64,000 nucleotides of DNA from Deltaproteobacteria bacterium (GCA_033764095.1 JANRJF010000068.1:4199-68198), one strand, 5' to 3'. Counted from the stretch's first letter, positions 4,004-37,579 are shown. Notes: a model not told the origin generated them from the sequence alone. Made by a program: numbers and translations.

Positions 4004-4071
4004 GCGGCGGTCTGATACAGGGCGTGCGGGTGGCCCGTCCACCGCGCGGTCGCCATGTGGAGGAGGTGGGA

Positions 4072-4806
4072 ATGCCGAGGTTGCTGAAGCGCGCGGCGCT
4101 GGGATGCGCGGCGCTGGCCGTGATCGGCTGCGGCGGGCGGTCGGCTCCGTCGCCGGGCCCGCCGGCGCCGGTGGTAGCGCCGCCGGTCAACGCCGCCGAG
4201 TTGGTGCGAGCGCTGCGCGGTGGGGGCTTCGTGCTCTTCGTGCGCCACGCCGCCAGCGCGCCGGGCGACGACGGGGCGCGCGTCGTGATCGAGGACTGCC
4301 GGACGCAGCGCAACCTCACCGCCGTCGGGCAGGCGCAGGCGCAGGCGATCCACGCCGCGCTGACGCGCCTGCGCATCCCGATCGGCGAGGTGCGTGCGAG
4401 CCCCTACTGCCGCGCCGCCGACACCGCGCGCCTCGCCTTCGGCTACATGTTGCTCGACAACGACCTGCGCCCGCTGCGCGACGGGCACAGCGCGACGCAC
4501 CTCGCCGCCGTGCGCCACCTGCTCGCAACGCCGCCGGTGCCGGGCACCAACGCGGTGCTGGTCGGTCACGCCGACACCTTTGCCAAGCTCACCGGCATCG
4601 AACTGGGTGAGGGCGACACCGCCGTGGTGCGGCCCGAGCCGGGCGGCGGCAGTTGGACCGTCGTCGGTCGCATCGCCGCCGCGCAGTGGAGCGCCCTCGC
4701 GATCGCGCGCGCCGTCGCTCCGTCGACCGAATCGAACCGCCGCGCCGGCGCGGCGGCAGTCGCGACCGCACCGGTGTCGACCGCCGCGGCCGCCCGGGAG
4801 GGGTGA
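4072..4806 (+). CDS. Histidine phosphatase family (phosphoglycerate mutase-like) lipoprotein
   Basis: Start MPRLLKRAALGCAALAVIGCGG carries a lipobox and follows a GGAGG RBS. FVLFVRHAAS matches the RHG motif region of the histidine phosphatase superfamily. Confidence 0.6.
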   Translation: MPRLLKRAALGCAALAVIGCGGRSAPSPGPPAPVVAPPVNAAELVRALRGGGFVLFVRHAASAPGDDGARVVIEDCRTQRNLTAVGQAQAQAIHAALTRLRIPIGEVRASPYCRAADTARLAFGYMLLDNDLRPLRDGHSATHLAAVRHLLATPPVPGTNAVLVGHADTFAKLTGIELGEGDTAVVRPEPGGGSWTVVGRIAAAQWSALAIARAVAPSTESNRRAGAAAVATAPVSTAAAAREG

Positions 4807-6613: not shown

Positions 6614-8098
6614 TCAGGGGAACGGCAGGCGGCCGCGCGGCGCGTTGGAGGCCGCGGCAGCCGGCGGGCCGTCGCGGCCATACAGCGCGGCGGTCTCGTC
6701 GGTGTAGAGCAGATGCCACTCCGGGCGCTGGTCGAGCGGAGTGGGCAGGCCGCGCGGCGCGAGCACCAGCGTGGTCGGGTAGGCGTCGAGCAGGCGGGCG
6801 CCGGCCGGGTCGCCGTCGCCGCGGAAGAAGGCGAAGCCGTCCTCGACCGTCGCCGGCGGGTAGACGGTGGCGAAGCGGCCGTCGAGCGAGACGGCGATCG
6901 CCGGCGCGAGGTGCCAGAGCGCGTAGCCGCCCCAGTCGAGCGGCAAAGCGAGGTTGCCGCGCGTGCCGCTGCTGGCGAGGTAGCGTACCGCGCCGACCGG
7001 GTAGTCGCGCGCCTCGAACACCAGGCGTGGTCCGTCGCCGGCCAGCCGCGCGCCGAGCAGCGCCAGCTGCAGCGTCGCGAGCCCGGCCAATGCGGCGGCC
7101 AGGGCGCCGGTGGCGGCGGCGGAGAAGCGAAAGCGGGCGCGCGCCGCCAGCCAGGCGAGCGCCGCGTCGGCCTGGTCGGCGAGCGGCGCCGCGGCGCAGA
7201 GTGCGAACAGCGGGGTGTGGCGCTGCTGGCGCAGCGCGAGAGCGGCGAGGCCGGCGACCAACAGCGCCCACCACCAGTGGCGGCGCAGCAGCCGTGCAAA
7301 CGGCAGCGTCGCGAGCCAGGCGGCGAGCAGGACGAGGAACGGTCGTTGCGCCGGATCGGCGAGCTGCACCGGTTGCCATTCGCTGAGCGGATGCGGCGCG
7401 CTGAGCTCGCGCACGACGTAGGCGAACAGGTCGGCGCCGTAGGGCGTCAGGCAGGCGCCGACGGTGGCGGCCAGGACGAAGCGGATGGCGCTGATCTCAC
7501 GCTTCTGGACAACCTGTTGGCCGACATAGAGCCCGAGGATGCCGAGGCCGACGACCACCGCGCCGTGTGCGTTCGACCACAGTGTGAAGGCGGCGACGAC
7601 GGCGGGTAGCGTGCGCCAGCTGGGGCGCGGGGTGCGGTCGAGCCAGACCAGCAGGGCGGCGACGGCGAGCGCGGTGACGATCTGCGGGCGCACGGCGTAG
7701 CCGCGCGACAGTGCGGCCAGCGCCAGCACCATCACCGGGCCGCGCGCCCACCAGTTGGCGGCGTGGCGGGCGATCAGCGTCCACAGCAGCGCGGCGGTCA
7801 GCAGCGCAACGGCGAGCTTGGCGAGCCACAGCGCGGTGCCGCCGCCGTGCGCGAACAGCCAGGCGAAGACGACCTGGGTGAGCCACTCGTGATCGACCCA
7901 GGCGGCGCCGGCGGCGGTGTACGACGCATCGTCGACGCGCGGCACGGCGCCGAGCGCGAGGATGCGGCGGCCGCTGAACAGGTGCACCCAGAGGTCGTTG
8001 TCGGCCTCGTTGTCGGCGAGGAAGTAGAGTGCGCTGCTGGCGATCAGCAGCATCCAGGCGCGGGCCAACCAGGTGTCGGCAGGGCCGGCGTTGCTCAC
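6614..8098 (-). CDS. Multi-pass integral membrane protein, GT-C-fold glycosyltransferase-like (function unknown)
   Basis: 494 aa with about 10 predicted TM segments rich in W, L and A, plus a C-terminal soluble domain. This resembles polyprenyl-phosphate-dependent glycosyltransferases such as ArnT, PMT and Emb. Start overlaps the SppA stop (GTGA). Confidence 0.5.
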   Translation of the reverse strand: MSNAGPADTWLARAWMLLIASSALYFLADNEADNDLWVHLFSGRRILALGAVPRVDDASYTAAGAAWVDHEWLTQVVFAWLFAHGGGTALWLAKLAVALLTAALLWTLIARHAANWWARGPVMVLALAALSRGYAVRPQIVTALAVAALLVWLDRTPRPSWRTLPAVVAAFTLWSNAHGAVVVGLGILGLYVGQQVVQKREISAIRFVLAATVGACLTPYGADLFAYVVRELSAPHPLSEWQPVQLADPAQRPFLVLLAAWLATLPFARLLRRHWWWALLVAGLAALALRQQRHTPLFALCAAAPLADQADAALAWLAARARFRFSAAATGALAAALAGLATLQLALLGARLAGDGPRLVFEARDYPVGAVRYLASSGTRGNLALPLDWGGYALWHLAPAIAVSLDGRFATVYPPATVEDGFAFFRGDGDPAGARLLDAYPTTLVLAPRGLPTPLDQRPEWHLLYTDETAALYGRDGPPAAAASNAPRGRLPFP

Positions 8099-9084
8099 GG
8101 CGCCCAGAGGTAGAGGAAGCCCGGCCCCTGCGGCAGCCCGTCGCGCGTCAGGCTGAGCACGTTGATCTGGTTGACCTGCGGCACCGTTCCACCGCTGCGC
8201 GCGTAGATGCTGTCGGCGAACTCGCTGCCGCGCAGATAGCGGATGACGGTCGCGTCGCTGACCCCGGCGCGCTGCTTGGCGCGGTCGATGGTGCCGTCCA
8301 GGTAGCCGATGTCGTCCACCAGGCCGCCGGCGTGTGCCTGCTCGGCGCTGAAGACGCGGCCGTCGACCATGGTCGCGTCCATCTCCGCCGTCAGGTGGCT
8401 GCCGCGCCGTTCGCGCACCAGGCCGACGAAGCGCTGCTGCATGTCGCCGATCAGCTGCTGCAGGACCGCGCGCTCGGCCGGCGTCATGGTGCGCAGCGGC
8501 GAGCCGATGTCCTTCATCTTGCCGGAGGCGATGGTCTGGTCGGCGACGCCGATCTTCTCCATCAGGCCGGCGACGCTGACGTTGGTGAAGATCACCCCGA
8601 TGCTGCCGGTGACGCTGGTCGGGCTGGCGACGATCTCGTCGCCGGCGAGCGCGACGTAGTACCCGCCGGAGGCGGCGACATCCAGCATCTGCACGAAGAT
8701 CGGCGTGCCGTGCTTGGCGCGGAACCGGGTGAGGCGATCGTAGATGATGTCGCTGGCGGTCACCGTGCCGCCGGGGCTGTTGATGCGCAGCACCAGCGCC
8801 TTGATGTCGTCGTCCTGATCGGCCTGGTCGAGCTCCGCCTCGAGGCGCGCCAGCGTGCTCTCCTGGCGACTCAGCCCGAGCGCGCTCTCGCGCGGCTCGC
8901 TGCCGATCACGCCGGAGAGGTCGATGAGCAGGATCTTGGCGCGGCCGCTGCCGCTGACGACGCGTTCCTCCAGCGGCTCAGGGCGGCGCGACAGCGGGTT
9001 GAACTCACCGGTGATCAGCACGCAGCCGCTGAATGCCAGGGCGAGCGGCGCCAGCAGCGCGAGGCGGAGCGAACGGCTTGGCAT
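8095..9084 (-). CDS. sppA: Signal peptide peptidase SppA (S49 family, 36K type)
   Basis: ILLIDLSGVI, INSPGGTVTASD and VASGGYYVA are S49 motifs. Start chosen at MPSRSLRLALLAPLALAFSGC (signal peptide with lipobox). The full track ORF extends 52 aa further upstream. Confidence 0.75.
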   Translation of the reverse strand: MPSRSLRLALLAPLALAFSGCVLITGEFNPLSRRPEPLEERVVSGSGRAKILLIDLSGVIGSEPRESALGLSRQESTLARLEAELDQADQDDDIKALVLRINSPGGTVTASDIIYDRLTRFRAKHGTPIFVQMLDVAASGGYYVALAGDEIVASPTSVTGSIGVIFTNVSVAGLMEKIGVADQTIASGKMKDIGSPLRTMTPAERAVLQQLIGDMQQRFVGLVRERRGSHLTAEMDATMVDGRVFSAEQAHAGGLVDDIGYLDGTIDRAKQRAGVSDATVIRYLRGSEFADSIYARSGGTVPQVNQINVLSLTRDGLPQGPGFLYLWAP

Positions 9085-9130
9085 CACCGGGGGCACTGTA
9101 TACTCATGGGCTTTCCGGCGAGGCAAGGCG

Positions 9131-10514: not shown

Positions 10515-10967
10515 TCACGCCTGCGCGGCTTCGCCGGGGCGGATCTGATCCCAGGCGTTGCGGTAGGTGGCGAACTTGCCGGCATACGAGCGGCGCGAGT
10601 CGGGCAGGTAGAAGGTCTTGCCGCTGATCGCCTCCCAGGGGATGACGAAGGCCTGCGACAGGTCGAGCTTCTGCTGCGGCACCAGCGGCACACAGGCGAA
10701 AAAGTCGCTGTAGCGCTCACCGACCTTGCCGCGATGGTGAAAATTGAAGTTCCAGGCGCGGTAGACGTAGTTGTAGTGTCGCCCGCCGACGTGGACGCGG
10801 CGGCGCGACGAGCTCGGGTAGGCGACGCGCAGGGCCAGGCGAACCCGACCGTCGACGATGAAGTCGAAGCGCGACTGCGGCGGGGCGGTGACCACCTCGT
10901 GGCCGAGGCCGGTCAGATGGGAGACGACCTCCTGCTTCGGGACTTCGTGTATCTCGACCCGGTTCAT
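10515..10967 (-). CDS. Hypothetical protein (150 aa); weak resemblance to the restriction-endonuclease-like PD-(D/E)XK fold
   Basis: Start MNRVEIHEV at the first internal ATG. Residues FDFIVDG..LALRVAY form a D...(D/E)xK-like pattern. The upstream TTG-initiated extension is unconvincing. Confidence 0.35.
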   Translation of the reverse strand: MNRVEIHEVPKQEVVSHLTGLGHEVVTAPPQSRFDFIVDGRVRLALRVAYPSSSRRRVHVGGRHYNYVYRAWNFNFHHRGKVGERYSDFFACVPLVPQQKLDLSQAFVIPWEAISGKTFYLPDSRRSYAGKFATYRNAWDQIRPGEAAQA

Positions 10968-11140
10968 CGTCCGTTGCGAGGTCGTGCGTCGGCTCGGCGA
11001 CATCAGCCCGTTCGGCCGCTCTTTCTGGTCAGACCACCTATGCTCCAGCCGCGCCGGGTATAACCCGACACCGGGCGCTTGCCAAGCAAAAAAACGGCGC
11101 GACAACTGCATTGCATTGCCTCGCCCGTGGAGCGGCGAGG

Positions 11141-11908
11141 TCAGCTCTTGCGGCCTCGGGCGTTTGGCTTGGCGGGCCTGGTCGCGGGCTTCGGCTTGCC
11201 GACCCAACGCGATCGCGTCGGCGTTTTCTTCGGCTCAGGCGGGGTCGTCTTGCCCGGGAACGGGCAGATGTCGATCAGGACGCAGGCAGGGCAATCTGGT
11301 TTGCGGGCAAAGCAGACGCGTCGGCCGTGGTACTGCAGCAGGTGGCAGAAGCGGATCTGGCGCTCGGCGGGGACCATCGCGGTGAGATCGGCCTCGATTC
11401 TGTCCGGCTCGGTCTCGGTGGTCAGGCCGAGGCGCTGCGACAGCCGGCCGACGTGCGTGTCGACGCCGATGCCGGGCAGGCCGAAGGCGTTGCCGCGCAG
11501 GATGTTGGCGGTCTTGCGGCCGACGCCGGAGAGGGTGAGCAGGTCGTCGAGCTGACGGGGCACCTCGCCACCGAAGCGCTCGACCAGCTGCTGGCAGCAG
11601 GCGCGGACGGCCTTGGCTTTCTGCCGGTAGAAGCCGGTTGGGCGCACCCATTCCTCCAGGTCTTCCTGGCTGACGGCGGCGAAGTCGCGCGCGGTCGGGA
11701 AGCGGCGGAAGAGCCCCGGGGTGACCTCATTGACCTTCGCGTCGGTGCACTGCGCGGCGAGGATGAGGGCGACGAGCAGCTCCAGCGGCGAGGTGAAGTC
11801 GAGCGCCAGCTTGGCGTCCGGGTGGGCGCGGTCGAGGCGCTCGTAGAGCGCGTTGATCGGCGCCGCCTTGCGGGCGCGGCGCGGCGGGGCGGCGGGGCGG
11901 GACGCCAT
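11141..11908 (-). CDS. nth: Endonuclease III (Nth), DNA glycosylase/AP lyase with a [4Fe-4S] cluster
   Basis: HhH-GPD motif LLTLSGVGRKTANIL and C-terminal CX6CX2CX5C (CFARKPDCPACVLIDIC). The basic Lys/Pro-rich C-terminal tail is unusual. Confidence 0.85.
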   Translation of the reverse strand: MASRPAAPPRRARKAAPINALYERLDRAHPDAKLALDFTSPLELLVALILAAQCTDAKVNEVTPGLFRRFPTARDFAAVSQEDLEEWVRPTGFYRQKAKAVRACCQQLVERFGGEVPRQLDDLLTLSGVGRKTANILRGNAFGLPGIGVDTHVGRLSQRLGLTTETEPDRIEADLTAMVPAERQIRFCHLLQYHGRRVCFARKPDCPACVLIDICPFPGKTTPPEPKKTPTRSRWVGKPKPATRPAKPNARGRKS

Positions 11909-11955: not shown

Positions 11956-12780
11956 TTACATGTACGAGCCGCCGGTGACCAGGACGACGTGGCCGGTGAC
12001 GTAGTCGGCCAGCGGCGAGGCGAGGAACAGCACCGGGCCGGCGGCTTCCTCCGGCGTGCCGGCGCGGCCGAGCGGCACCATCTGGATCGCCATCTGGCGC
12101 ATCTGGTCGGGGATGCCCATCTCGACCGTGTTGCCGTCCACCTGTTCCTTCATCGACTTGTCCTTCGCCGCGGTGAGCCGCGTCTCGATGAAGCCGTAGG
12201 CGACGGCGTTGACGTGGATGTTCAGCCGCCCCCACTCCTTCGCCAGCGTCTTGGTGACGCCGACGATGCCCATCTTGCCGGCCGAGTAGTTCACCTGGCC
12301 GGCGTTGCCGGCGACGCCGGAGGTCGAGGAGGTGTTGACGACGCGGCGGATGACGCGTTTGCCGGCCGCCGCCTCCTGCTTCGCCCACTCGCGCCAGTAC
12401 AGCGAGGCGGCGCGCAGGATGCGGAAGGGGCCGGTCAGGTGGCAGTCGATCATCGCGTACCACTGCTCGTCGCTCATCTTGTGGATGACGCCGTCGTAGG
12501 TGTAGCCGGCGTTGTTGACGATGATGTCGAGCGCCTTGAACTTGTCGACGGTGGTCTTGATTAGCGCGTTGGGGAACGCGGCATCGGTCACCGACCCGGC
12601 GACCGCGAGCGCCTCGCCACCGCTCTTGCGGATCGACTCGGCGGCCTCCTCGGCGACGTTCGGGTCGAGGTCGTTCACCACCACGCGCGCGCCATGCTGG
12701 GCGAACAACTCGGCCACCGCGCGGCCGATGCCGCGCCCCGAGCCGGTGACGATCGCCACCTTGCCTTCGATGAGCTTCAT
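11956..12780 (-). CDS. SDR family NAD(P)-dependent oxidoreductase
   Basis: MKLIEGKVAIVTGSGRGIGRA (TGxxxGxG), NNAG and YSAGK (YxxxK). Strong AGGAGG RBS upstream. Paralogous to the gene at 38115-39062. Confidence 0.8.
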   Translation of the reverse strand: MKLIEGKVAIVTGSGRGIGRAVAELFAQHGARVVVNDLDPNVAEEAAESIRKSGGEALAVAGSVTDAAFPNALIKTTVDKFKALDIIVNNAGYTYDGVIHKMSDEQWYAMIDCHLTGPFRILRAASLYWREWAKQEAAAGKRVIRRVVNTSSTSGVAGNAGQVNYSAGKMGIVGVTKTLAKEWGRLNIHVNAVAYGFIETRLTAAKDKSMKEQVDGNTVEMGIPDQMRQMAIQMVPLGRAGTPEEAAGPVLFLASPLADYVTGHVVLVTGGSYM

Positions 12781-12919
12781 GCGACTACCTCCTGGGGGAA
12801 TCGGCCCTCTGTAGCCCAAGCCGGCGGGCCGGCAAACCACACCCGCCCTTGCCCGACCGCGGCAAACCTGACACCTGGCAGGCCAGGCACCGGAGGCGGC
12901 CCTGGAGGAAATTCGAGAC

Positions 12920-13828
12920 GTGCAGATCGATCGGGCGACCGGCGCGAGCGTGCTGGTGCGCGACCTGTGGAAGCTGCTGCGGCCGACGCAGTGGTCGAAG
13001 AACGCGGTGCTGTTCGCCGCGCTGATCTTCTCCAAGCACCTGTTCGTGGCCGGCGATCTGCTGCGCGTGACGGTGGCGTTCGTCTGCTTCTGCGCCGTCG
13101 CCAGCGGCGCCTACGTGATGAACGACCTGCGCGACTGCGAGCGCGACCGGCAGCACCCGCTCAAGTCGCGCCGTCCGCTGCCCTCCGGCCGCGTCTCGCG
13201 CGGCGCCGCCCTGGTGCTCGCCCTCGGCCTGATGGCGACCGGCGTGGCCGGCGCGGCGCTGCTCGACCGCGGCTTCGCCGTGCTGGTCGTCGCCTACCTG
13301 CTGCTGCAGATCCTCTACACCTTCTCGTTCAAGGAGAAGGTGATTCTCGACGTCATGTCGATCGCCACCGGGTTCGTCATCCGCGCCGCCGCCGGCGGCG
13401 TGGTGATCAGCGTGCCGGTGTCGCCCTGGCTGATGATCTGCACCTTCCTGCTGGCGCTCTTCCTCGGCTTCGCCAAGCGGCGCCACGAGCTGGTGCTGCT
13501 GGAGGGACGCGCCGAGGAGCACCGCGCCTCGCTGCGCGAGTACAGCCCGTATTTCCTCGACCAGATGATGTCGGTGGTCACCGCCTCGGTGGTGGTGGCG
13601 TACGCGATCTACGCCGCCTCGCCGGAGGTGCAGGAGAAGCTCGGCACCGACAAGCTCTACCTGACGATTCCGTTCGTGCTGTTCGGCATCTTCCGCTACC
13701 TCTACCTGGTGCACCAGAAGGAAGAGGGCGGCGATCCGACGCAACTGCTGCTCTCCGACCAGCCGCTGCTGCTCGACGTCGTGCTGTGGATCCTCACCGC
13801 CGCGATCGTGCTCTACTGGGGCGCATGA
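12920..13828 (+). CDS. UbiA-family prenyltransferase, decaprenyl-phosphate phosphoribosyltransferase (DPPR synthase)-like
   Basis: Motif NDLRDCERDRQHPLKSRRP is the Asp-rich motif characteristic of DPPR synthases (Rv3806c family). About 8 TM helices. GTG start. Confidence 0.7.
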   Translation: MQIDRATGASVLVRDLWKLLRPTQWSKNAVLFAALIFSKHLFVAGDLLRVTVAFVCFCAVASGAYVMNDLRDCERDRQHPLKSRRPLPSGRVSRGAALVLALGLMATGVAGAALLDRGFAVLVVAYLLLQILYTFSFKEKVILDVMSIATGFVIRAAAGGVVISVPVSPWLMICTFLLALFLGFAKRRHELVLLEGRAEEHRASLREYSPYFLDQMMSVVTASVVVAYAIYAASPEVQEKLGTDKLYLTIPFVLFGIFRYLYLVHQKEEGGDPTQLLLSDQPLLLDVVLWILTAAIVLYWGA

Positions 13829-14196
13829 GCGGCGGCGGGCCGACGCGCGGCGACCGGGTCGACAAGCCCTGGGGCCACGAGCTGATCTGGGCGCGCACCG
13901 ACCGGTACGTCGGCAAGATCCTGCACATCCGCGCCGGCGAGGCGCTCAGCCTGCAGTACCACCAGGTGAAGGACGAGACCCTCTACCTGCTGCGCGGCGC
14001 GCTGCGGCTGGAGGTGGGCGACGACGAGCGCAGGCTGGAGACGCTCGACCTGGTGCCGGGCGATGCGATCCACCTCTGGCCCGGGCGGCGGCACCGCATG
14101 ACGGCGTCGAGCGACTGCGAGGTGCTCGAAGTTTCGACGCCCGAGCTGCACGACGTCGTGCGCCTGGCCGACCGCTACGGTCGCGCCGGCGGCTGA
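13825..14196 (+). CDS. Cupin domain protein (small, type II phosphomannose-isomerase-like barrel)
   Basis: PWGHELIW...LSLQYHQVKDETLYLLRGALRLEV carries cupin motifs G(X)5HXH and G(X)5PXG. ATG overlaps the previous stop. Confidence 0.6.
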   Translation: MSGGGPTRGDRVDKPWGHELIWARTDRYVGKILHIRAGEALSLQYHQVKDETLYLLRGALRLEVGDDERRLETLDLVPGDAIHLWPGRRHRMTASSDCEVLEVSTPELHDVVRLADRYGRAGG

Positions 14197-14207
14197 GCAC
14201 GCCGCGC

Positions 14208-15131
14208 ATGCGCGCGCTGATCACCGGCATCGACGGCTTTGCCGGTCGTCACCTCGCCGCGCTGCTGGCGGCGCGCGGCCACGCCGTGCACGGGCTGGCG
14301 CGCCGGGCGGTCGCGTCGCCGGCGGGCGCGACGGTGCACCCTGCCGACGTCACCGACGCCGACGCCGTCGCGCGCGCGGTTGCCGCGGCGGCGCCCGAGC
14401 GGTGCTTCCACCTCGCCGGCATCGCCTCGGTGCCGGCGGCGATCGCCGACCCGTCGCTGGCGTTGCGCGTCAATGCGCTCGGCACCCAGCACCTGCTCGC
14501 CGCGGTGGCGCGCCACGCACCGGCGGCGCGGGTGATCGTGATCGGCTCGGGCGACGCCTACGGCGCGGTGCCGGCGGCGGCGCTGCCGGTACGCGAGGCG
14601 CAGCCGCTGCAGCCGCGCAGTCCCTACGGCGCGAGCAAGGCCGCGGCGGAGATCATCGCCGGCCAGTGGGAGCGCGGGGGCGGGCTCGACGTCGTCTGCG
14701 TGCGCGCCTTCAATCACACCGGGCCCGGCCAGCGCGCCGGCTTCGTCTGCGCCGACTTCGCCCGCCAGCTGGTCGCCATCGCCGCCGGCACGCTGCCGCC
14801 GCGCGTCGCGGTCGGCGATCTCAGTCCGGTGCGCGACTTCAGCGACGTGCGCGACGTCGTCGCCGCCTATGTCGCCATCGCCGAGCGCGGTGCGCGCGGC
14901 GCGGTGTACAACGTCTGCAGCGGCGTTGGGCGCAGCGTACGTGAGGTGCTCGATGCGCTGATCGGGCTGGTCGGCGTGCCGGTGGAGGTGACGGTCGATA
15001 CCACCCGCCTGCGCCCCGCCGACGTGCCGGCGCTGGTCGGCGATGCGTCCGCCCTGCACGCCGCCACCGGCTGGGCGCCGCGCATCGCCTGGGAGCAGAC
15101 GCTCGCCGACCTGATCGCCTCGCTGCGATGA
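14208..15131 (+). CDS. NAD-dependent epimerase/dehydratase family protein (NDP-sugar epimerase/reductase-like)
   Basis: MRALITGIDGFAGRHL is a Rossmann GxxGxxG. YGASKAAAE is the catalytic YxxxK. About 300 aa, typical of extended SDRs. Confidence 0.75.
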   Translation: MRALITGIDGFAGRHLAALLAARGHAVHGLARRAVASPAGATVHPADVTDADAVARAVAAAAPERCFHLAGIASVPAAIADPSLALRVNALGTQHLLAAVARHAPAARVIVIGSGDAYGAVPAAALPVREAQPLQPRSPYGASKAAAEIIAGQWERGGGLDVVCVRAFNHTGPGQRAGFVCADFARQLVAIAAGTLPPRVAVGDLSPVRDFSDVRDVVAAYVAIAERGARGAVYNVCSGVGRSVREVLDALIGLVGVPVEVTVDTTRLRPADVPALVGDASALHAATGWAPRIAWEQTLADLIASLR

Positions 15132-15146
15132 GATCTCCTATCGAAC

Positions 15147-16295
15147 CTAGGCGACGTAGGCGAACAGGGTATACGTGTTTGAGATCAGATAGACCCCGTT
15201 ACCGACCGGAGCATCTGTACTGGCCCCCAGGTTGCCGATGTTGATCAGCTGAACACCATTCGCAGCGTTGAAGGCCCGATTCGGCCCAGCAGTAAAAAGT
15301 ACACCGTTGGCAACGGTGACGCCGATCGGAGATCCCGCCGCGGTCATCCAGTTCTGCGCACCGGTCGTCGCGTCGAACGAGCGGACCGCTCCGTTGCCAG
15401 TCGCGATGTAAACCTGACCATTGTCGATAGCGGGCGCAGACGTTGCGGTGATGCCAGCCGCGGCCCACAACGATGTGCCGTTCGTCGCGTCCAGCGCGCG
15501 CAGGGTGGAGCCAAATCGGCCGAACAGCTTGCCGTTCGAAATGGCGAGATCATTCACCACGCCGCCGAACGCGGGGCTCGTCCACAAGACTTGTCCGGTG
15601 CTCAGATCGAGCGCCTTCACGACCCCGCCGGTACCGTAGTAGACCGCAGTATCCACTACGGTCCAGGTTGTGGCTGCTCCCGCGTTGCTGGTCCACACTG
15701 TCGCGCCACTGCTCGCCGCCAGCGCGCTCACCCCGGTTGTTGTACTGAGATAGAGATTTGCCCCAACCAGGCCCGGTGATGAGAGTCCGTTAACTCCAGA
15801 TACAGTCGCGCTCCAGGACAGCGCTCCGTTCGTCGAGAACGCGTATACCTGGTTGGGTGGTCCCGAACTCTGCGACTGGGCGACGTACACGAACGAGGCT
15901 GTGGCAGCAGGCGTCGCGGTCTGCCCGGTGACCCAGTCGTTGCCGCCAGTTACTGATGCACTCCACAGCTCGACACCCGTGTCCCATTGATATGCATGCA
16001 AGTTTCCGTCGCCGCCGTTTACGAATACCTTGTTGCCTGCGAGGACTGGATTGCCAGCGTAGTAGTGCTGATAGGTTTTGAGCGGGTCGCCGATCGGAGC
16101 CTGCCAGAGTTGATGCAGATTGGCCGCGTTGTCGGTGGAAATTGCGTTAGCCTGATTGCAGCACCCCTCGTTCATATTGAATCCAGACCGCGTGGCACTG
16201 CCACGGAACTGCGGCCAGTCACACCCGCCGAGCAACACCAACGACGAGGCGATGCCTACGGTCACTTTCATCCATCGACGTTGAGTTGCGATCAT
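15147..16295 (-). CDS. PQQ-like beta-propeller repeat lipoprotein (BamB-like fold); composition-atypical gene
   Basis: Lipobox LVLLGGC. Repeated ...G.VYA/LWT... propeller-blade motifs. GC clearly lower than neighbours. The start could alternatively be the Met 8 codons downstream. Confidence 0.6.
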   Translation of the reverse strand: MIATQRRWMKVTVGIASSLVLLGGCDWPQFRGSATRSGFNMNEGCCNQANAISTDNAANLHQLWQAPIGDPLKTYQHYYAGNPVLAGNKVFVNGGDGNLHAYQWDTGVELWSASVTGGNDWVTGQTATPAATASFVYVAQSQSSGPPNQVYAFSTNGALSWSATVSGVNGLSSPGLVGANLYLSTTTGVSALAASSGATVWTSNAGAATTWTVVDTAVYYGTGGVVKALDLSTGQVLWTSPAFGGVVNDLAISNGKLFGRFGSTLRALDATNGTSLWAAAGITATSAPAIDNGQVYIATGNGAVRSFDATTGAQNWMTAAGSPIGVTVANGVLFTAGPNRAFNAANGVQLINIGNLGASTDAPVGNGVYLISNTYTLFAYVA

Positions 16296-32036: not shown

Positions 32037-32693
32037 ATGTCCCGGCGCGCCGTCGCGGTTATGCTCCTCGCCGTCGCGGCGGCGGCGCTGTTCTACGCAA
32101 CGCAGCGCACGCCGGCACCGGCGCCGAATGCGACCGACGACCTGCTCGCGCGCGCGGCGCGGCAGCAGGCGGCGCATCGGCCGTTCCGCGCCGTGCAGAG
32201 CTACCTGCGCGTCGTGCAGCGGTGGCCGGAGCAGGTCGACGCCTGGGCGGCGCTCGCCGGCCTTGCGCTGGCGGCGGGCCAGTCGGGCAACGCTCGGCGC
32301 GCCGCCGAGCGTGTGCTGGTCCTGCGACCCGGTGATGCCGGGGCGGCGGCGGTGATCGCCAGCGCCGCCGCCGCGACGCCGGCGCCGACCGTGCGCCCGG
32401 GGCGTCCGCATGCCGTCACCCGCCGGCGTTGCGCGGCGGCGAAGCGGCTCTACGATCTCGGCCGCGTCGACGACGCGATCGTCGCCCTGCAGGCGGCGGC
32501 ATGGCTCGACGATCGCGCCGCGCGGCCGTACCGCGATCTCGCCAACATCTACTATCTGCAGGGCCGTCTGCCGGAGGCGATCGGCGCGCAGCGCGAGGCG
32601 GTGACGCGTGCCCCGCAGAGTCAGGCGCTGCGCCGCAACCTGGCGGCGCTGGAGGCGGGGTTGCCAACTAGGGCGCCCGGCACACCGCGGTGA
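32037..32693 (+). CDS. TPR repeat protein with N-terminal membrane anchor/signal
   Basis: Hydrophobic N-terminus AVAVMLLAVAAAALFYA and TPR-like helical repeats (RLYDLGRVDDAIVALQAA, LANIYYLQGRLPEA). Confidence 0.55.
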   Translation: MSRRAVAVMLLAVAAAALFYATQRTPAPAPNATDDLLARAARQQAAHRPFRAVQSYLRVVQRWPEQVDAWAALAGLALAAGQSGNARRAAERVLVLRPGDAGAAAVIASAAAATPAPTVRPGRPHAVTRRRCAAAKRLYDLGRVDDAIVALQAAAWLDDRAARPYRDLANIYYLQGRLPEAIGAQREAVTRAPQSQALRRNLAALEAGLPTRAPGTPR

Positions 32694-32725
32694 CGATCCC
32701 CTGCCGCGTCGCGGCGATCCGTGCG

Positions 32726-34687
32726 ATGCGTCGGCGCATGCCGCGCCGCGCGCTCATCCCGCTGCTGCTGCTGCTGGCGCTGTTCGGCTGCGCGCGTGCG
32801 CCGCAGCCGGAAGCGGGACGGGTCATCGTACTCGGCCTCGACGGCGTCGATCCGGATGTCGTCGACATGCTGGTCGCCGAGGGCAAACTGCCGCACTTCG
32901 CCGAGCTACGCGCCGGCGGCGCGAGTGGACGATTGCGCAGCAGCAAGCCGCTGCTCAGCCCGATCCTGTGGACCACGATCGCCACCGGCAAGACACCCGA
33001 CCAGCACCGCATCGGACACTTCGTCGCGGTCAATCCGACCAGCGGTGAGCAGCTGCCGGTCACCAGCCAGATGCGCCGCGTCAAGGCGCTGTGGAACATC
33101 CTGTCCGATGCCGGCCGGCGTGTGGCAGTGGTCGGCTGGTGGGCGACCTGGCCGGCGGAGTCGGTGCGCGGCGTCATCGTCAGCGACCACACCTGTTACC
33201 ACTTCCTGTTCGACGAGGGTCTGCACGGCGGCGGCGAGTCGGCGGGCAGCGTCTTCCCGGCGTCGATGGCGGCACGTCTCGCGCCGCTGGTGAAGCGGCC
33301 GAGCGACCTGCGCGGCGAGGACCTCGCCCCGTTCGTGCACGTCGACGCCGTGGCGCTCGCCCGCCCGTTCGACTTCGACGATCCGCTCGGCCACTTCCGC
33401 TGGGCGCTGGCGACGGCGCAGACCTACACCGCCATCGCCGCCGAGCTGTGGAAGACCGAGCGGCCCGACCTGCTGATGAGCTACGTGGAAGCGACCGACT
33501 CGACCGCCCACCTGTTCGGGCATCTGTTCCGCGCCCGTGGACTGGTCGGCGAGCTGGCCGAGCAACAGCGCCAGTATGGCGACGCGGTCGAGGCGATGTA
33601 CGTCTACGCCGACCGGATGGTCGGCGATACGCTGCGCCTGCTCGACGACCGCACGACGCTGTTGGTGCTCTCCGACCACGGGTTCACGCTCGGGCAGTTG
33701 CCCGACGACCCGAGCGCGACGCGGGATATGCGCCGCGTCAGCGAGCGCCAGCATCGCGAGGAGGGCATCCTCTACCTCTACGGCCGCGCGGTGCGCGCTG
33801 GCGCGCGGCTCGCGGCGCCGACGCTCGTCGACATCGCCCCGACCGTGCTGGCGCTGAGCGGCGTCGCGCCGCCGCGCGACATGCCCGGCCGCGTGCTGAC
33901 CGATGGCCTCGATCTCGTCGACCCGCCGCGCATCCTGGCGAGCTACGAGGGCGCGGCGCCCGGCGCGACCGCGCGCGCCGAGGATGCGAGCGTCGATCCG
34001 GCGATCCTCGAGCGGCTGCGCAGCCTCGGCTACCTGGAAACCGAATCGCCCCAGGGTGATCGCAACCTTGCCGCGGTGCTCTTCCAGCAGGGGCGCTACG
34101 CGGAGGCGGCGACGGCGTTTCAGGCGCTGGTGGCGCGCAATCCCGACGACGGTGCGCTGCGCGCCAGCCTGGCTGGGGCGCTCGGGGCGCTCGGCCGCTA
34201 CGACGAGGCGCTCGCCGAGCTCGACCGCGCCATCGCGCTCGCGCCGCTCAACCCGGAGGGCTACCACAACCGCGGCGTGATCCATGAGCGGCGCGGCGCG
34301 CGTGATGCCGCCATCGCCGCCTACCGCCAGGCGCTGCGCTACAACCCGCGCTATGCGCCGGCGCGCGACGCGCTGGCGCGGCTCGGCGCTTCTGACGAGG
34401 CGCCGACGCCGGTCGCCGCGGCGGCGCAGATCGCGCTGCAGCTCGCCGAACAAGCGAGTGCGCTGGCGCGGCGCGGCGACTACGCCGCTGCGATGCGGGC
34501 GCTCGACGACGCCGCGCGCGCCGCACCGCAGGTCGCGCTGATCCAGCAGTACCGCGCCAACGTCGCCTTCCTGATGGGCGATCGCGCCGGCGCGGTCGCC
34601 GCGCTGCGCGAGGGGCTACGCCTCGAGCCCGACAACAAGCTGTTCCAGGAGAACCTCAAGCGCCTGATCGTGGAAGACGGGCGCTAG
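32726..34687 (+). CDS. Alkaline-phosphatase-superfamily (type I phosphodiesterase / nucleotide pyrophosphatase) lipoprotein with a C-terminal TPR domain
   Basis: Lipobox LLLLALFGCA. VIVLGLDGVDPD and LLSPILWTTIATG are AlkP-core metal-site motifs. C-terminal TPRs (AEAATAFQALVARNPDD..., AIAAYRQALRYNPRYAPA). Confidence 0.65.
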   Translation: MRRRMPRRALIPLLLLLALFGCARAPQPEAGRVIVLGLDGVDPDVVDMLVAEGKLPHFAELRAGGASGRLRSSKPLLSPILWTTIATGKTPDQHRIGHFVAVNPTSGEQLPVTSQMRRVKALWNILSDAGRRVAVVGWWATWPAESVRGVIVSDHTCYHFLFDEGLHGGGESAGSVFPASMAARLAPLVKRPSDLRGEDLAPFVHVDAVALARPFDFDDPLGHFRWALATAQTYTAIAAELWKTERPDLLMSYVEATDSTAHLFGHLFRARGLVGELAEQQRQYGDAVEAMYVYADRMVGDTLRLLDDRTTLLVLSDHGFTLGQLPDDPSATRDMRRVSERQHREEGILYLYGRAVRAGARLAAPTLVDIAPTVLALSGVAPPRDMPGRVLTDGLDLVDPPRILASYEGAAPGATARAEDASVDPAILERLRSLGYLETESPQGDRNLAAVLFQQGRYAEAATAFQALVARNPDDGALRASLAGALGALGRYDEALAELDRAIALAPLNPEGYHNRGVIHERRGARDAAIAAYRQALRYNPRYAPARDALARLGASDEAPTPVAAAAQIALQLAEQASALARRGDYAAAMRALDDAARAAPQVALIQQYRANVAFLMGDRAGAVAALREGLRLEPDNKLFQENLKRLIVEDGR

Positions 34688-35782: not shown

Positions 35783-37579
35783 ATGGCGTCCCGAAAGCGC
35801 AGCGCGGCGCGTCCGCAGCCGGCCGCGGTCGCGCGCGCGACGCCGCCTCCGGCCGTGGCGCCGGCCGCACCCGCCGGCCGCACGGCGCTGCGGATCTTCT
35901 TCGCGCTCTTCGTGCTCTACGCGTGCAACGCCCGCATGCTGGCGCCGGGCGACAGCATTCCGACCCGGCGACTGCCATTCAGTCTGCTGCGCGAGGGCAA
36001 CCTCAACCTCGACGAATTCAGTTGGGAGATGAGTCCGAAGGGGCGACTGCCGTACTACGTCCATCCCGCCAATGGGCACGTCTACTCCGTGTCCACCTTC
36101 GCCACCGCGGTGGTGATCGCGCCGCTCTACGTGTTGCCGGCCTGGTGGCTGGCGCGTGCCGGCGTGCCGTACGACGACGTCCGGGCGCGCGTCGTCGAAG
36201 TGGTCATGGAGCACGTCTCCGCCGCGATGCTGGCGGCGCTCTCGGCGGCGTTGCTGTTTCTGCTGCTGGCGCGACTGACGACGCGCGGCTGGGCGCTAGC
36301 GCTGACGCTGCTCTACGCGCTCGGCACCTCGACCTGGTCGATCGCTAGTCAGGCGTTGTGGCCGCACGCCCTGTCCGAGCTGACGCTGGTGGGCCTGTGT
36401 CTGGGGCTACTCGCTCGCACCCCGACGCGCGCGCAACTGGTCGGTGCCGGTCTGATCGCGGCGCTGATGGTCGCCAATCGGCCGCAGATGCTCGCCTTCG
36501 CCGCGCTCGCCACCGGGTTCGTCGCGGTGCACCACCGCCGGCATCTGCTCGCCTTCGTCGCGCTGCCAACGCTGCTGGGGGTCGGTCTGGCGGCGTACAA
36601 TCGCGCCATCTTCGCCAGTCTGACCGGCGGCTACGGTGGGCTCGGTGTACTACGTGGCGCCCCGGGGCAGGGGCTGGCCGGGATGCTGTTCAGCCCCAAT
36701 CGCGGCCTGCTGGTCTACACGCCGATCATGGCCTTCGCGCTGTGGGGCGGCGTGCGGCTGTGGCGCGTCGCCGGCGTGCCGCCGTGGTTGCGGTGGTTGA
36801 GCGTCGGCGTGCTGGCGCACGTGCTCGTGCACGCCAGCTTCCGCGCCTGGTGGGGCGGCTACACCTATGGGCCGCGCTACTTCACCGACGTGCTGCCGGC
36901 GCTGACCATCTTTCTCGTCTACGGGCTGGTGCCGTACTGCCGCCAGCGCGCCGTGTTCGCGCTGGCGGTGGCGCTGGCGATGTGGGGCATCGGCGTGCAG
37001 GCGATCGGCGTCTACGCCGCCGACGACAGTTGGAATCGTACGCCGCAGACGCTGGGCCGGTCGCTGCAGCGGCTGTGGGATTGGAACGACCTGCAGATCG
37101 CGCGCGCCGCGCGCGACGGCTTTCGCGGTGGCGAGCTGGCAGCGGTGATGCTGGACGCCTTCACCGACTCCCAGGCGGCGCGGCTGGTGCCGCTCGAGCC
37201 GACCGACCTCGCCTCGACGATCGACGTGCCCGACCTTCCCGAGACGGTGCCGGCGGGGTCGCGGATGCGGCTGACGGCGCGAATCGTGAATGGCGGCGCG
37301 CAGGCCTGGCCGGCATTCAACGGCGAAGGCGTGATCAGCGCGCGCAACCTCGTCTATCTGATGGTGCGCTGGTTCGACGGCGAGCGCATGGTCGACGGCG
37401 ATGTGCTGCCGTTGCCGGAGAACCTCGCGCCGGGCGAGGCGCTGGACATGGCGCTGCCGCTGGCCGCGCCGAAGCAGCCGGGTATCTACACGCTGGAGGT
37501 GCGCGTCACCCAGGCGCTGGACGGGCGGCGCGGTGTGATCGGGCCTGACGCTTTGCGGCGCGAGATCCGCATCGAGTGA
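35783..37579 (+). CDS. Multi-pass integral membrane protein with C-terminal extracytoplasmic domain, GT-C-fold glycosyltransferase-like
   Basis: 598 aa with about 11 TM helices (W/L/A-rich), then an approximately 190-aa soluble domain. Start set at MASRKRSAARP. Divergent from the alcohol dehydrogenase gene. Confidence 0.5.
   Translation: MASRKRSAARPQPAAVARATPPPAVAPAAPAGRTALRIFFALFVLYACNARMLAPGDSIPTRRLPFSLLREGNLNLDEFSWEMSPKGRLPYYVHPANGHVYSVSTFATAVVIAPLYVLPAWWLARAGVPYDDVRARVVEVVMEHVSAAMLAALSAALLFLLLARLTTRGWALALTLLYALGTSTWSIASQALWPHALSELTLVGLCLGLLARTPTRAQLVGAGLIAALMVANRPQMLAFAALATGFVAVHHRRHLLAFVALPTLLGVGLAAYNRAIFASLTGGYGGLGVLRGAPGQGLAGMLFSPNRGLLVYTPIMAFALWGGVRLWRVAGVPPWLRWLSVGVLAHVLVHASFRAWWGGYTYGPRYFTDVLPALTIFLVYGLVPYCRQRAVFALAVALAMWGIGVQAIGVYAADDSWNRTPQTLGRSLQRLWDWNDLQIARAARDGFRGGELAAVMLDAFTDSQAARLVPLEPTDLASTIDVPDLPETVPAGSRMRLTARIVNGGAQAWPAFNGEGVISARNLVYLMVRWFDGERMVDGDVLPLPENLAPGEALDMALPLAAPKQPGIYTLEVRVTQALDGRRGVIGPDALRREIRIE

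What the first reader, a model, noticed from the sequence alone, without database searches (positions are those of the whole stretch)
11956..15131. DPPR-synthase-like UbiA prenyltransferase with cupin, NDP-sugar-type epimerase and divergent SDR: candidate polyprenyl-phospho-pentose (DPA-like) pathway outside Actinobacteria
The UbiA protein carries the NDLRDCERDRQHP motif of decaprenyl-phosphate 5-phosphoribosyltransferases. In mycobacteria that enzyme is followed by a 2'-epimerisation via an FAD oxidase plus an SDR reductase (DprE1/DprE2). Here an SDR, a cupin and an extended-SDR epimerase/dehydratase surround it. There is no DprE1-like FAD enzyme in the window, so the epimerisation chemistry may differ. 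Two GT-C-like membrane proteins (6614-8098, 35783-37579) are plausible consumers of a polyprenyl-phospho-sugar donor.
Basis: partly seen in the sequence, partly recalled or inferred. Interest (0 to 1): 0.55.

Follow-up and report, generated by a model that had tools for sequence, protein, structure and literature searches.

The report
Lipid-ribose synthase beside GDP-rhamnose genes
A three-gene operon in an uncultured Binatia bacterium pairs a membrane enzyme that should attach phosphoribose to a lipid carrier with two enzymes of GDP-D-rhamnose supply, which looks like an ordinary, already-annotated variant of known cell-surface sugar pathways and not a new arabinose route.

Summary
The UbiA protein (12920-13828) belongs to the decaprenyl/polyprenyl-phosphate 5-phosphoribosyltransferase family. 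It passes two NCBIfam equivalog cut-offs, and its best solved relative is M. tuberculosis Rv3806c. Ten PRPP/Mg contact residues are identical and Tyr157 is Phe. NCBI already gives this exact protein that name.

The proposed alternative DPA-like epimerisation is not supported.
- The "epimerase" (14208-15131) is an Rmd-type GDP-4-keto-6-deoxy-mannose reductase.
- The cupin (13825-14196) matches the isomerase domain of type II phosphomannose isomerases.
- In sister Binatia genomes a true Gmd sits between these two genes.
- The SDR (11956-12780) is FabG-like, divergently transcribed, and adjacent to UbiA only in close relatives.

No DprE1, DprE2, phosphatase partner or flippase lies beside UbiA. 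The first "GT-C-like" protein (6614-8098) does have a GT-C fold. The second (35783-37579) resembles AftA/AftB only weakly. Neither is tightly linked to UbiA.

The best reading is a precursor-supply operon for an envelope glycan containing D-rhamnose and pentofuranose. This parallels the Citrobacter youngae O-antigen locus described by Kelly et al. (2024). It is a new member of a known kind, of low to moderate interest.

The parts
12920..13828 (+). Polyprenyl-phosphate 5-phosphoribosyltransferase (DPPRS/PPPRS type UbiA), 302 aa, with no fused HAD phosphatase domain
   Evidence: Pfam PF01040. NCBIfam NF008977 303 bits against cut-off 234, and NF008978 220 against 207. PDB 8j8j Rv3806c E = 1e-39. 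PRPP/Mg contacts R21 K27 Y65 N68 D72 K82 R85 Q130 Y133 K138 are identical to Rv3806c, and Y157 is F152 (residues from PMC10994848). The exact protein is named DPPRS by NCBI.
13825..14196 (+). Stand-alone cupin resembling the C-terminal isomerase domain of type II phosphomannose isomerase. It is translationally coupled to UbiA through an ATGA overlap.
   Evidence: PF07883, and PF01050 at 25.1 bits against a gathering score of 23.6. Aligns to the last ~110 positions of PRK15460 and TIGR01479 PMI/GMP models. The motifs KPWGxE, LSxQxHxxKxE, RHR and DDVVRLxDRYGR are nearly invariant in 14 Binatia orthologues. The L041 and L044 orthologues carry precomputed PF01050 hits.
14208..15131 (+). Rmd-like extended SDR, a probable GDP-4-keto-6-deoxy-D-mannose 4-reductase that makes GDP-D-rhamnose
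   Evidence: PF16363 and PF01370. Best PDB matches are 2pk3 (E = 7e-70) and 6x3b (E = 2e-60), both Rmd. 39% identical to 2pk3 and 29% to PaGMD. The S/Y/K triad is present. GDP contacts N, V, R, R are kept, and the K193 position is D as in the characterised Rmd.
11956..12780 (-). FabG/PRK07791-like classical SDR, divergently transcribed from UbiA. It is probably a lipid-metabolism gene and not part of the system.
   Evidence: Best NCBIfam hits are FabG models at 237 bits, all below cut-off, and DprE2 model NF053786 is not among the best 25. 24% identity to a bona fide DprE2. 93% and 81% identical in L005 and L011. It is replaced by MaoC, thioredoxin-TPR, RmlB or unknown genes upstream of UbiA in other Binatia.
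12781..12919 (.). 139-bp divergent intergenic region between the SDR and UbiA starts, the presumed promoter region of the UbiA-cupin-Rmd operon
   Evidence: Sequence read. No sigma-70 consensus match lies inside it. No Rfam family was found.
6614..8098 (-). GT-C-fold membrane glycosyltransferase of a Binatia-restricted, unannotated family. It is a possible but unproven user of a polyprenyl-phosphate sugar. Its start overlaps the SppA stop.
   Evidence: No Pfam or NCBIfam hit. 175 homologues, all 'hypothetical'. AF2 model has pLDDT 95. The 27 best Foldseek PDB hits are all GT-C enzymes: STT3/PglB, AftA, ALG9, AftD, ArnT, DPY19, EmbB, AftB. Invariant A32-D33-N34-D35-L36-W37 and H39 lie after TM1. 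The constant neighbour is SppA, not UbiA.
35783..37579 (+). Multi-pass membrane protein with a C-terminal Ig-like domain. Its transmembrane part weakly resembles the arabinofuranosyltransferases AftA and AftB. It lies 21 kb from UbiA.
   Evidence: AF2 model has pLDDT 89. Foldseek: AftB 9dlh TM-score 0.37 with probability 1.0, AftA 8if8 0.31-0.34, and the C-terminal domain matches NBR1/CARDB-type Ig folds. Weak NCBIfam LA_3751/3752 putative glycosyltransferase hit at 29.5 bits. No profile relation to the 494-aa family.

Best explanation
UbiA-cupin-Rmd is a small operon that supplies precursors for an envelope glycan.

- The UbiA enzyme transfers ribose-5-phosphate from PRPP to a polyprenyl phosphate. 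The product is polyprenyl-phospho-beta-D-ribofuranose-5-phosphate, the lipid-linked pentofuranose donor precursor.
- The PMI-like cupin and the Rmd-like reductase belong to the mannose-6-P to GDP-mannose to GDP-4-keto-6-deoxymannose to GDP-D-rhamnose route. Gmd is encoded elsewhere in this genome, and inside the operon in sister genomes.

By analogy with the Citrobacter youngae O1/O2 O-antigen locus, the likely product is a D-rhamnose/mannose-containing polysaccharide. It would be decorated outside the cytoplasm with a pentofuranose, by default ribofuranose.

Shown here: family membership, catalytic residues, operon structure and synteny. Inferred: the lipid carrier, the sugar product, and that the two halves serve the same glycan. 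The 5'-phosphatase, flippase and transferring GT-C are not next to UbiA and must lie elsewhere.
For: - UbiA family and active site: with residue roles from PMC10994848. The phosphoribose-binding residues K28, Y70 and Q135 are stated there to be non-conserved in other UbiA enzymes, and all are conserved here.
- Operon: ATGA overlap and an 11-nt gap.
- Rmd identity.
- Cupin as a PMI domain.
- Synteny across Binatia loci whose UbiA is 64-88% identical: the cupin follows UbiA in about two-thirds and Rmd in more than half. A true Gmd lies between them in L003, L006, L014 and L021, and after the cupin in L016. A true dTDP-glucose 4,6-dehydratase (TIGR01181, 449 bits against 365) lies directly upstream in L006, L008, L013 and L015.
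- Precedent: the C. youngae OPS locus holds manB, manC, gmd and rmd together with the PPPRS system (PMC11127046). A Marivivens plasmid has Gmd, GTs, an EamA transporter, DPPRS and PAP2 in one locus.
Against: - The window has no Gmd, ManB/ManC, Leloir GT, phosphatase or flippase beside the operon. The pathway is therefore incomplete locally.
- Cupin, Gmd and Rmd are present in a mosaic pattern, while UbiA is always present. UbiA stands alone in L009, L012, L034 and L039. Co-location could therefore be historical and not functional.
- Only two Rmd enzymes have been characterised (bioRxiv 10.1101/854612), so specificity at 39% identity is a prediction.
- No enzyme here has been assayed.
Confidence: 0.55

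Rival explanations
1. The extended SDR, with or without the cupin, acts on the lipid-linked sugar. It would convert polyprenyl-P-ribofuranose to the arabino or xylo epimer without DprE1/DprE2, as the GalE-like ORF13 does in C. youngae O2.
For: - A single GalE-like SDR epimerase acting in such a system is experimentally established (PMC11127046).
- The SDR is co-transcribed with UbiA.
- There is no Gmd in the window to feed an Rmd.
- In L004 and L011 the SDR follows UbiA directly, without the cupin.
Against: - The best relatives by far are the characterised Rmd reductases.
- The basic G-L-A-R-R segment after beta-2 suggests exchangeable NADP(H), not the tightly bound NAD+ of epimerases. This is inferred from SDR knowledge, not tested.
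- GDP-contact residues are retained.
- Orthologues in sister genomes sit directly after a true Gmd.
Confidence: 0.1
2. The genes are neighbours without a functional link. UbiA makes a lipid-linked ribose for one conserved envelope process in Binatia. The cupin and Rmd are a variable nucleotide-sugar cassette for a different glycan that happens to be inserted downstream.
For: - UbiA is far more conserved (75-88% identity in most listed homologues) than Rmd (47-67%).
- UbiA persists when the cupin, Gmd or Rmd are lost.
- The flanking genes (nth, SppA, ComEC, DUF1302) are housekeeping genes held in place by clade-wide synteny.
- In relatives with 64-65% UbiA identity, the gene after UbiA is DUF362 instead.
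Against: - The stop/start overlap of UbiA and the cupin suggests co-translation.
- NDP-sugar genes gather on both sides of UbiA in several lineages, with RmlB upstream and cupin-Gmd-Rmd downstream.
- The same combination occurs in unrelated, characterised or annotated glycan loci.
Confidence: 0.3
3. The UbiA is an ordinary prenyltransferase that uses a prenyl diphosphate donor on an aromatic or other acceptor, and is not a PRPP-dependent phosphoribosyltransferase.
For: It belongs to the UbiA superfamily (PF01040). The NDxxDxxxD motif is shared with prenyltransferases (PMC10994848).
Against: - DPPRS models score 303 and 220 bits, while every other UbiA subfamily model scores 67 bits or less.
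- The phosphoribose-specific residues K, Y and Q and the K/R pyrophosphate cluster of Rv3806c are all conserved.
Confidence: 0.04

Closest known systems
Mycobacterium tuberculosis Rv3806c (DPPR synthase) and the DPA pathway (Rv3807c, DprE1, DprE2, Aft/Emb GT-C enzymes)
   Same: - Same enzyme family and the same length (302 aa).
- The alignment covers residues 12-298.
- The Mg2+, ribose, 5'-phosphate and pyrophosphate contact residues are all conserved.
- GT-C-fold proteins are present in the window.
   Different: - No DprE1, DprE2 or PAP2 phosphatase lies in 64 kb.
- The organism is a Gram-negative-type Binatia MAG.
- The neighbours are GDP-sugar enzymes.
- True UbiA-DprE1-DprE2 trios occur in other loci: Actinomycetota L036 and L037, a Flammeovirgaceae plasmid L045, and, in a different gene order, Ktedonobacterales L033.
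Three-component pentofuranose side-chain systems (Citrobacter youngae O1/O2 ORF15 PPPRS, ORF14 MATE flippase, ORF12 GT136 GT-C, and ORF13 epimerase); Kelly et al. 2024, PMC11127046
   Same: - A PPPRS of the same family, with the same catalytic N/D/D/D and R/E motifs (NDLRDCERD and KRRHE).
- It is located with GDP-mannose/GDP-D-rhamnose genes.
- GT-C proteins annotated only as 'hypothetical' are typical of such loci.
   Different: - There is no fused or adjacent HAD phosphoribose phosphatase, and no MATE, SMR or GtrA flippase.
- The GT-C is not adjacent. The nearest is 4.8 kb away on the other strand and is coupled to SppA.
- It is not part of an O-antigen ABC-transporter locus.
- The SDR is Rmd-like and not shown to resemble ORF13.
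GDP-D-rhamnose pathway (Gmd and Rmd of Pseudomonas aeruginosa and Aneurinibacillus thermoaerophilus; WbpW/AlgA type II PMI-GMP)
   Same: - An Rmd-type reductase with its catalytic triad and GDP contacts.
- A cupin homologous to the PMI domain.
- Gmd is adjacent in sister genomes.
   Different: - Gmd and the guanylyltransferase are missing from this window.
- The PMI domain is a free-standing 123-aa protein, not the C-terminus of a bifunctional enzyme.
- The genes are operonic with a membrane phosphoribosyltransferase.

Membership tests
DPPRS/PPPRS (PRPP-dependent UbiA-superfamily phosphoribosyltransferases) | Scores above the curated cut-off of the family's equivalog models and well above other UbiA subfamilies | tested here: met
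   NF008977 303.3 bits against 234, and NF008978 220.2 against 207. The next non-DPPRS prenyltransferase model scores 66.9 bits.
DPPRS/PPPRS (PRPP-dependent UbiA-superfamily phosphoribosyltransferases) | Mg2+ ligands and the first Asp-rich motif (Rv3806c N73, D77; ORF15 N247, D248, D251, D255) | tested here: met
   N68, D69, D72 and D76 in NDLRDCERD (residue roles from PMC10994848 and PMC11127046).
DPPRS/PPPRS (PRPP-dependent UbiA-superfamily phosphoribosyltransferases) | Phosphoribose-specific contacts absent from ordinary UbiA enzymes (K28, Y70, Q135, Y157), plus the K/R pyrophosphate cluster (R22, K87, R90, K143, Y138) | tested here: met
   K27, Y65, Q130, R21, K82, R85, K138 and Y133 are identical. 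Y157 is F152, a substitution also reported in some mycobacteria (PMC10994848).
DPPRS/PPPRS (PRPP-dependent UbiA-superfamily phosphoribosyltransferases) | PRPP-dependent transfer of ribose-5-P to polyprenyl phosphate | not testable with these tools
   This needs a membrane assay with PRPP and farnesyl- or undecaprenyl-phosphate.
DPA (decaprenyl-phospho-arabinose) pathway | DprE1 FAD oxidase | tested here: not met
   No FAD_binding_4 or ALO hit in any predicted window gene scanned. tblastn with a DprE1 that passes NF053785 gave no hit. The rest of the genome was not available.
DPA (decaprenyl-phospho-arabinose) pathway | DprE2-type SDR reductase | tested here: not met
   Both window SDRs (11956-12780 and 38115-39062) are FabG/PRK07791-like. 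NF053786 is not among their best 25 models. The first is 24% identical to a true DprE2.
DPA (decaprenyl-phospho-arabinose) pathway | Phosphatase that removes the 5'-phosphate (PAP2 Rv3807c or equivalent) | tested here: not met
   No PAP2 or HAD protein in the window. The only phosphatase-like candidates are His_Phos_1 at 4024-4806 and an LMW-PTP at 37583-38056, and neither is linked to UbiA.
Three-component pentofuranose glycosylation system (Kelly et al. 2024) | Flippase (MATE, SMR/EamA or GtrA) encoded with the PPPRS | tested here: not met
   None in the window. Comparator loci do have one: EamA in L046, GtrA in L047, and an ArnE/F-like protein in L031.
Three-component pentofuranose glycosylation system (Kelly et al. 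2024) | GT-C glycosyltransferase encoded with the PPPRS | tested here: inconclusive
   A GT-C fold is confirmed for 6614-8098. It lies 4.8 kb away on the other strand. It is syntenic with UbiA in L011, L041 and L044, but its constant partner is SppA, and in L043 no UbiA lies within 10 kb. Donor specificity is unknown.
[quoted passage not shown] | Extended SDR with TGxxGxxG and the S/Y/K triad, closest to characterised Rmd and not to Gmd or GalE | tested here: met
   2pk3 at E = 7e-70 and 6x3b at E = 2e-60. The best Gmd hit is 8e-32 and the best GalE-type hit is 5e-31. 39% identity to Rmd against 29% to Gmd.
[quoted passage not shown] | GDP-binding residues (PaGMD N179, V190, K193, R218, R279, E282; list from PMC9415975) | tested here: met
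   N, V, R and R are identical. The K193 position is D, as in the characterised A. thermoaerophilus Rmd. E282 is D.
[quoted passage not shown] | Partner Gmd supplying the 4-keto substrate | tested here: inconclusive
   No Gmd is in the window. A Gmd is present directly upstream of the orthologous Rmd in L003, L006, L014 and L021. The rest of this genome was not available.
Type II phosphomannose isomerase (cupin domain) | Match to PF01050 above the gathering score, with conserved cupin metal-ligand positions (Q/H, H, E, H) | tested here: met
   PF01050 scores 25.1 bits against 23.6. Q-x-H-x4-E and the RHR histidine are invariant in 14 orthologues. The assignment of these positions as metal ligands comes from my own knowledge of PMI cupins and was not tested.
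GT-C glycosyltransferase superfamily (protein 6614-8098) | GT-C fold with a conserved acidic motif in the first extracytoplasmic loop | tested here: met
   The model has pLDDT 95. The 27 best PDB matches are all GT-C, with a TM-score up to 0.63. D33, N34 and D35 are invariant just after TM1. That this loop faces outward is inferred from the model.

The most novel reading that the evidence does not exclude
Binatia may make a lipid-linked pentofuranose donor without any of the usual partners (DprE1/E2, HAD or PAP2 phosphatase, MATE/SMR/GtrA flippase). In genomes like this one, where no Gmd accompanies it, the Rmd-like SDR, possibly with the PMI-like cupin, may have been recruited to modify the polyprenyl-phospho-ribose itself. 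That would be a new one- or two-enzyme route to lipid-linked Araf or Xylf. It would be consumed by the Binatia-specific, unannotated GT-C families in the window.
Probability: 0.08. Interest if true: 0.6.

Novelty: new member of a known kind. Interest (0 to 1): 0.27.

Why it matters
If the main reading holds, this yet-uncultured soil and sediment lineage (Candidatus Binatia) decorates an envelope polysaccharide with a pentofuranose. It would use the lipid-linked, PRPP-derived donor route recently shown to be widespread in bacteria. The conserved operon gives a concrete handle for predicting its surface glycan (D-rhamnose plus ribofuranose). That extends a known pathway to a new phylum and does not change any concept.

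Two by-products may be more useful than the original claim. The first is a pair of Binatia-restricted GT-C-like families with no Pfam model. The second is a recurrent UbiA-DUF362 gene pair in other phyla. DUF362 belongs to the same Pfam clan as LarA racemases, so that pair is a more plausible place to look for a DprE1/E2-independent epimerase.

Tried and rejected
1. DprE2 role for the SDR at 11956-12780. Rejected because it is FabG-like, only 24% identical to a validated DprE2, and has variable synteny.
2. Hidden DprE1, Gmd, DUF362 or small flippase in the window. tblastn with validated or Pfam-assigned examples, and Pfam scans of about 50 predicted genes, found none. Two small ORFs with low second-codon-position G+C (57349-57594, 57767-58087) turned out to be soluble proteins, not SMR transporters.
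3. An apparent UbiA-DUF362 fusion in L019. This was an artefact of my ORF caller in high-GC DNA, because the two genes are in different frames.
4. Relationship between the two GT-C-like families. hhalign gave a probability of 12%, so none was shown.
5. Direct comparison with C. youngae ORF13. The sequence could not be obtained, because the supplement shows the alignment only as an image. The phage collection held only one unannotated homologue.
6. King et al. 2009 (Rmd structure paper) is not held. GDP contacts were taken from a review (PMC9415975) and mapped through 1rpn instead.
8. An exact-sequence look-up of the UbiA found no contig record.
9. No riboswitch or other RNA, and no tRNA, was found in the window. 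The promoter and terminator scan was uninformative.

Full report
**Observation**

The interval 11956-15131 holds four genes.
- A classical SDR lies on the minus strand. Its real start is at 12780, giving 274 aa.
- Across a 139-bp divergent spacer, three plus-strand genes follow in tight order.
- UbiA is at 12920-13828 (302 aa).
- The cupin is at 13825-14196 (123 aa). Its ATG overlaps the UbiA TGA.
- The extended SDR is at 14208-15131 (307 aa), after an 11-nt gap.

All four have the window's usual codon bias, with third-position G+C of 0.93-0.97. The window is about 70% G+C. The exact UbiA protein is on record at NCBI as 'MAG: decaprenyl-phosphate phosphoribosyltransferase [Deltaproteobacteria bacterium]'. 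Its named relatives at 76-79% identity are from Candidatus Binatia.

**The UbiA protein**

- It passes two NCBIfam equivalog models for decaprenyl-phosphate phosphoribosyltransferase (303 bits against 234, and 220 against 207). No other UbiA subfamily model exceeds 67 bits.
- Its best solved relative is M. tuberculosis Rv3806c (8j8j, E = 1e-39), aligned over residues 12-298.
- The cryo-EM paper on Rv3806c (PMC10994848) names the contact residues. These are the Mg2+ ligands (N73, D77), the ribose contacts (N73, Q135), the 5'-phosphate contacts (K28, Y70, Y157) and the pyrophosphate cluster (R22, K87, R90, K143, Y138). It also states that the phosphoribose sites are not conserved in ordinary UbiA prenyltransferases.
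- All of these residues are identical in the window protein. The one exception is Y157 to F, a change the paper also reports in some mycobacteria.
- The protein matches only the C-terminal half (positions 191-475) of the 482-residue model NF006088. It therefore lacks the N-terminal HAD phosphatase domain seen in C. youngae ORF15 (PMC11127046).

**The 'epimerase' and the cupin**

- The extended SDR's two best solved relatives are the characterised GDP-6-deoxy-D-lyxo-4-hexulose reductases (Rmd) of Aneurinibacillus thermoaerophilus (2pk3, E = 7e-70) and Pseudomonas aeruginosa (6x3b, E = 2e-60). The best Gmd and GalE-type hits are much weaker, at about 1e-31.
- In a joint alignment it is 39% identical to the A. 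thermoaerophilus Rmd and 29% identical to P. aeruginosa Gmd.
- It shares Rmd's short N-terminal region and the S/Y/K triad.
- It keeps the GDP-contact positions listed for Gmd enzymes in PMC9415975. N179, V190, R218 and R279 are identical, K193 is D as in Rmd, and E282 is D.
- The segment after beta-2 is G-L-A-R-R. From general SDR knowledge I read this as NADP(H) binding, as expected for a reductase, and not as the acidic residue typical of NAD+-retaining epimerases.
- The cupin passes the Pfam gathering score for PF01050 (type II phosphomannose isomerase C-terminal domain). It also aligns to the last ~110 positions of two bifunctional PMI/GMP models.
- Its signature motifs are nearly invariant in 14 Binatia orthologues.

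**Comparative context**

I examined 38 genome loci plus six further places. The counts below refer to Binatia loci whose UbiA is 64-88% identical to the window's.

| Feature | Where it occurs |
|---|---|
| Cupin after UbiA | About two-thirds of loci |
| Rmd-like gene | More than half of loci |
| Gene between cupin and Rmd (true Gmd where tested) | L003, L006, L014, L021 |
| Cupin followed by Gmd, no Rmd | L016 |
| True dTDP-glucose 4,6-dehydratase directly upstream of UbiA | L006, L008, L013, L015 |
| UbiA with no sugar-nucleotide neighbour | L009, L012, L034, L039 |

- The Gmd assignment rests on the L003 copy. It scores 438 bits against 415 on TIGR01472 and matches 1rpn at E = 4e-123.
- The upstream dehydratase assignment rests on the L006 copy, which scores 449 bits against 365 on TIGR01181.
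- UbiA is therefore embedded in a variable nucleotide-sugar cassette.
- The FabG-like SDR is upstream only in the window's closest relatives (L005, L011, L041 and L042). Elsewhere the upstream gene is a MaoC hydratase, a thioredoxin-TPR protein or an unknown protein.
- That SDR is 24% identical to a DprE2 that passes NCBIfam NF053786. The DprE2 model is not among its 25 best hits.

**What is missing**

Pfam scans of about 50 predicted genes, plus tblastn with validated or Pfam-assigned examples, found none of the following in the 64 kb:
- DprE1 or DprE2
- Gmd
- a PAP2 or HAD phosphatase
- a MATE, SMR or GtrA flippase
- DUF362
- any Leloir glycosyltransferase

Canonical partners do occur next to homologous UbiA genes elsewhere.
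- UbiA-DprE1-DprE2 occurs in Actinomycetota (L036, L037) and on a Flammeovirgaceae plasmid (L045). Ktedonobacterales (L033) has the same three genes with DprE2 and DprE1 upstream of UbiA.
- A Lactococcus plasmid (L047) has DPPRS, a HAD phosphatase and GtrA.
- A Marivivens plasmid (L046) has Gmd, glycosyltransferases, EamA, DPPRS and PAP2.

**GT-C candidates**

*Protein 6614-8098.*
- It has no Pfam or NCBIfam match, and all 175 homologues found are labelled 'hypothetical'.
- Its AlphaFold model (pLDDT 95) matches only GT-C enzymes in the PDB (STT3/PglB, AftA, ALG9, AftD, ArnT, DPY19, EmbB, AftB). It has an invariant D-N-D motif after TM1.
- Its invariable neighbour is SppA, with a 4-nt overlap in the window. 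In L043 no UbiA lies within 10 kb. The link to UbiA is therefore clade-level synteny, not an operon.

*Protein 35783-37579.*
- Its model (pLDDT 89) has a C-terminal Ig-like domain. Its membrane part matches AftB and AftA only weakly, with TM-scores of 0.31-0.37.
- It lies 21 kb from UbiA.

**Comparison with what is known**

Kelly et al. 2024 (PMC11127046) showed that UbiA-type polyprenyl phosphoribose synthases feed 'three-component' systems of synthase, flippase and GT-C. These systems add alpha-pentofuranose side chains to glycans in many bacteria. DprE1/E2 homologues, or a single GalE-like SDR (ORF13), set the pentose identity.

Their prototype locus also carries manB, manC, gmd and rmd, because the backbone is made of D-rhamnose and mannose. 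The Binatia operon reproduces that pairing of PPPRS with GDP-D-rhamnose genes. It lacks the adjacent phosphatase, flippase and GT-C.

Homologues annotated as DPPRS are common on plasmids of Rhizobium, Rhodobacterales, Bacteroidota, cyanobacteria, Lactococcus, Legionella and haloarchaea. The occurrence 'outside Actinobacteria' is therefore not new.

**Verdict**

- The assignment of the UbiA is right, and is already the public annotation.
- The proposed alternative epimerisation by the neighbouring genes is not supported.
- Most likely this is a precursor-supply operon for a glycan containing D-rhamnose and pentofuranose (confidence about 0.55).
- The main rival is co-location without a shared product (about 0.3).
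- A direct role of the SDR on the lipid-linked sugar remains possible but unlikely (about 0.1).
- It is a new member of a known kind, with interest about 0.27.

Noticed in passing
L019:6843-7910, L020:3320-4387, L023:6864-7970, L025:1005-2087, L031:6871-7953, L032:2429-3532 (not in the window): In other lineages (Zixibacteria, Phycisphaerae, 'Deltaproteobacteria' MAGs and unclassified MAGs) the DPPRS-type UbiA is followed at once by a DUF362 protein. In L025 and L031 a 120-aa ArnE/ArnF-like protein comes next. DUF362 shares a Pfam clan with LarA racemases and epimerases (PMC11770544). This pair may therefore be a DprE1/E2-independent epimerase system.
   Followed up: partly
window 6614-8098 (-) with SppA at 8095-9096 (-): A Binatia-restricted GT-C-fold family has no Pfam model. 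It is always encoded directly after signal peptide peptidase SppA, with a 4-nt overlap in the window, and next to DUF1329 (also in L043 and L044). Its substrate is unknown.
   Followed up: partly
window 35783-37579 (+), with LMW phosphotyrosine phosphatase at 37583-38056 (-) and a phosphodiesterase-TPR protein at 32690-34687 (+): A second Binatia-restricted membrane protein family has an AftA/AftB-like membrane part and a C-terminal Ig-like (NBR1/CARDB-type) domain. This architecture recalls GT-C enzymes that carry a carbohydrate-binding module.
   Followed up: partly
window 15147-16295 (-): A BamB-like PQQ beta-propeller gene has a third-position G+C of only 0.70, against about 0.93 for its neighbours. 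It is absent from this position in the closest relatives (L005, L041, L044), where DUF1302 follows Rmd directly. It is probably a recent insertion.
   Followed up: partly
window 4024-4806 (+): A histidine-phosphatase (branch 1) protein shows weak similarity to the LPS heptose-phosphate phosphatase PmrG. It is syntenic with DoxX and the GT-C protein in L041 and L042. It is the only loosely plausible sugar-phosphate phosphatase in the window.
   Followed up: no
L041:1-4507 and L042:1-4507: In a related Binatia genome, a GT4 glycosyltransferase, a 947-aa STT3/PglB-like oligosaccharyltransferase and a Glycos_transf_4 initiating transferase lie just beyond the His_Phos-DoxX-GT-C block. This cluster is not present in the window.
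   Followed up: no
window 45749-46963 (-), 60570-61367 (+), 61364-62158 (-): Myo-inositol-1-phosphate synthase, inositol monophosphatase and a glycerophosphodiester phosphodiesterase are present. They hint at inositol (lipid) metabolism in this Binatia genome.
   Followed up: no
window 10515-11207 (-): A conserved hypothetical protein between nth and DUF1329 has no family match. It is 74% identical in L011.
   Followed up: no
window 50550-55397 (-): A 1615-aa NAD-specific glutamate dehydrogenase of the large bacterial type is followed by a GNAT-domain protein (55425-57173).
   Followed up: no
window 1-64000: The whole window has no tRNA gene and no Rfam family at gathering score.
   Followed up: yes
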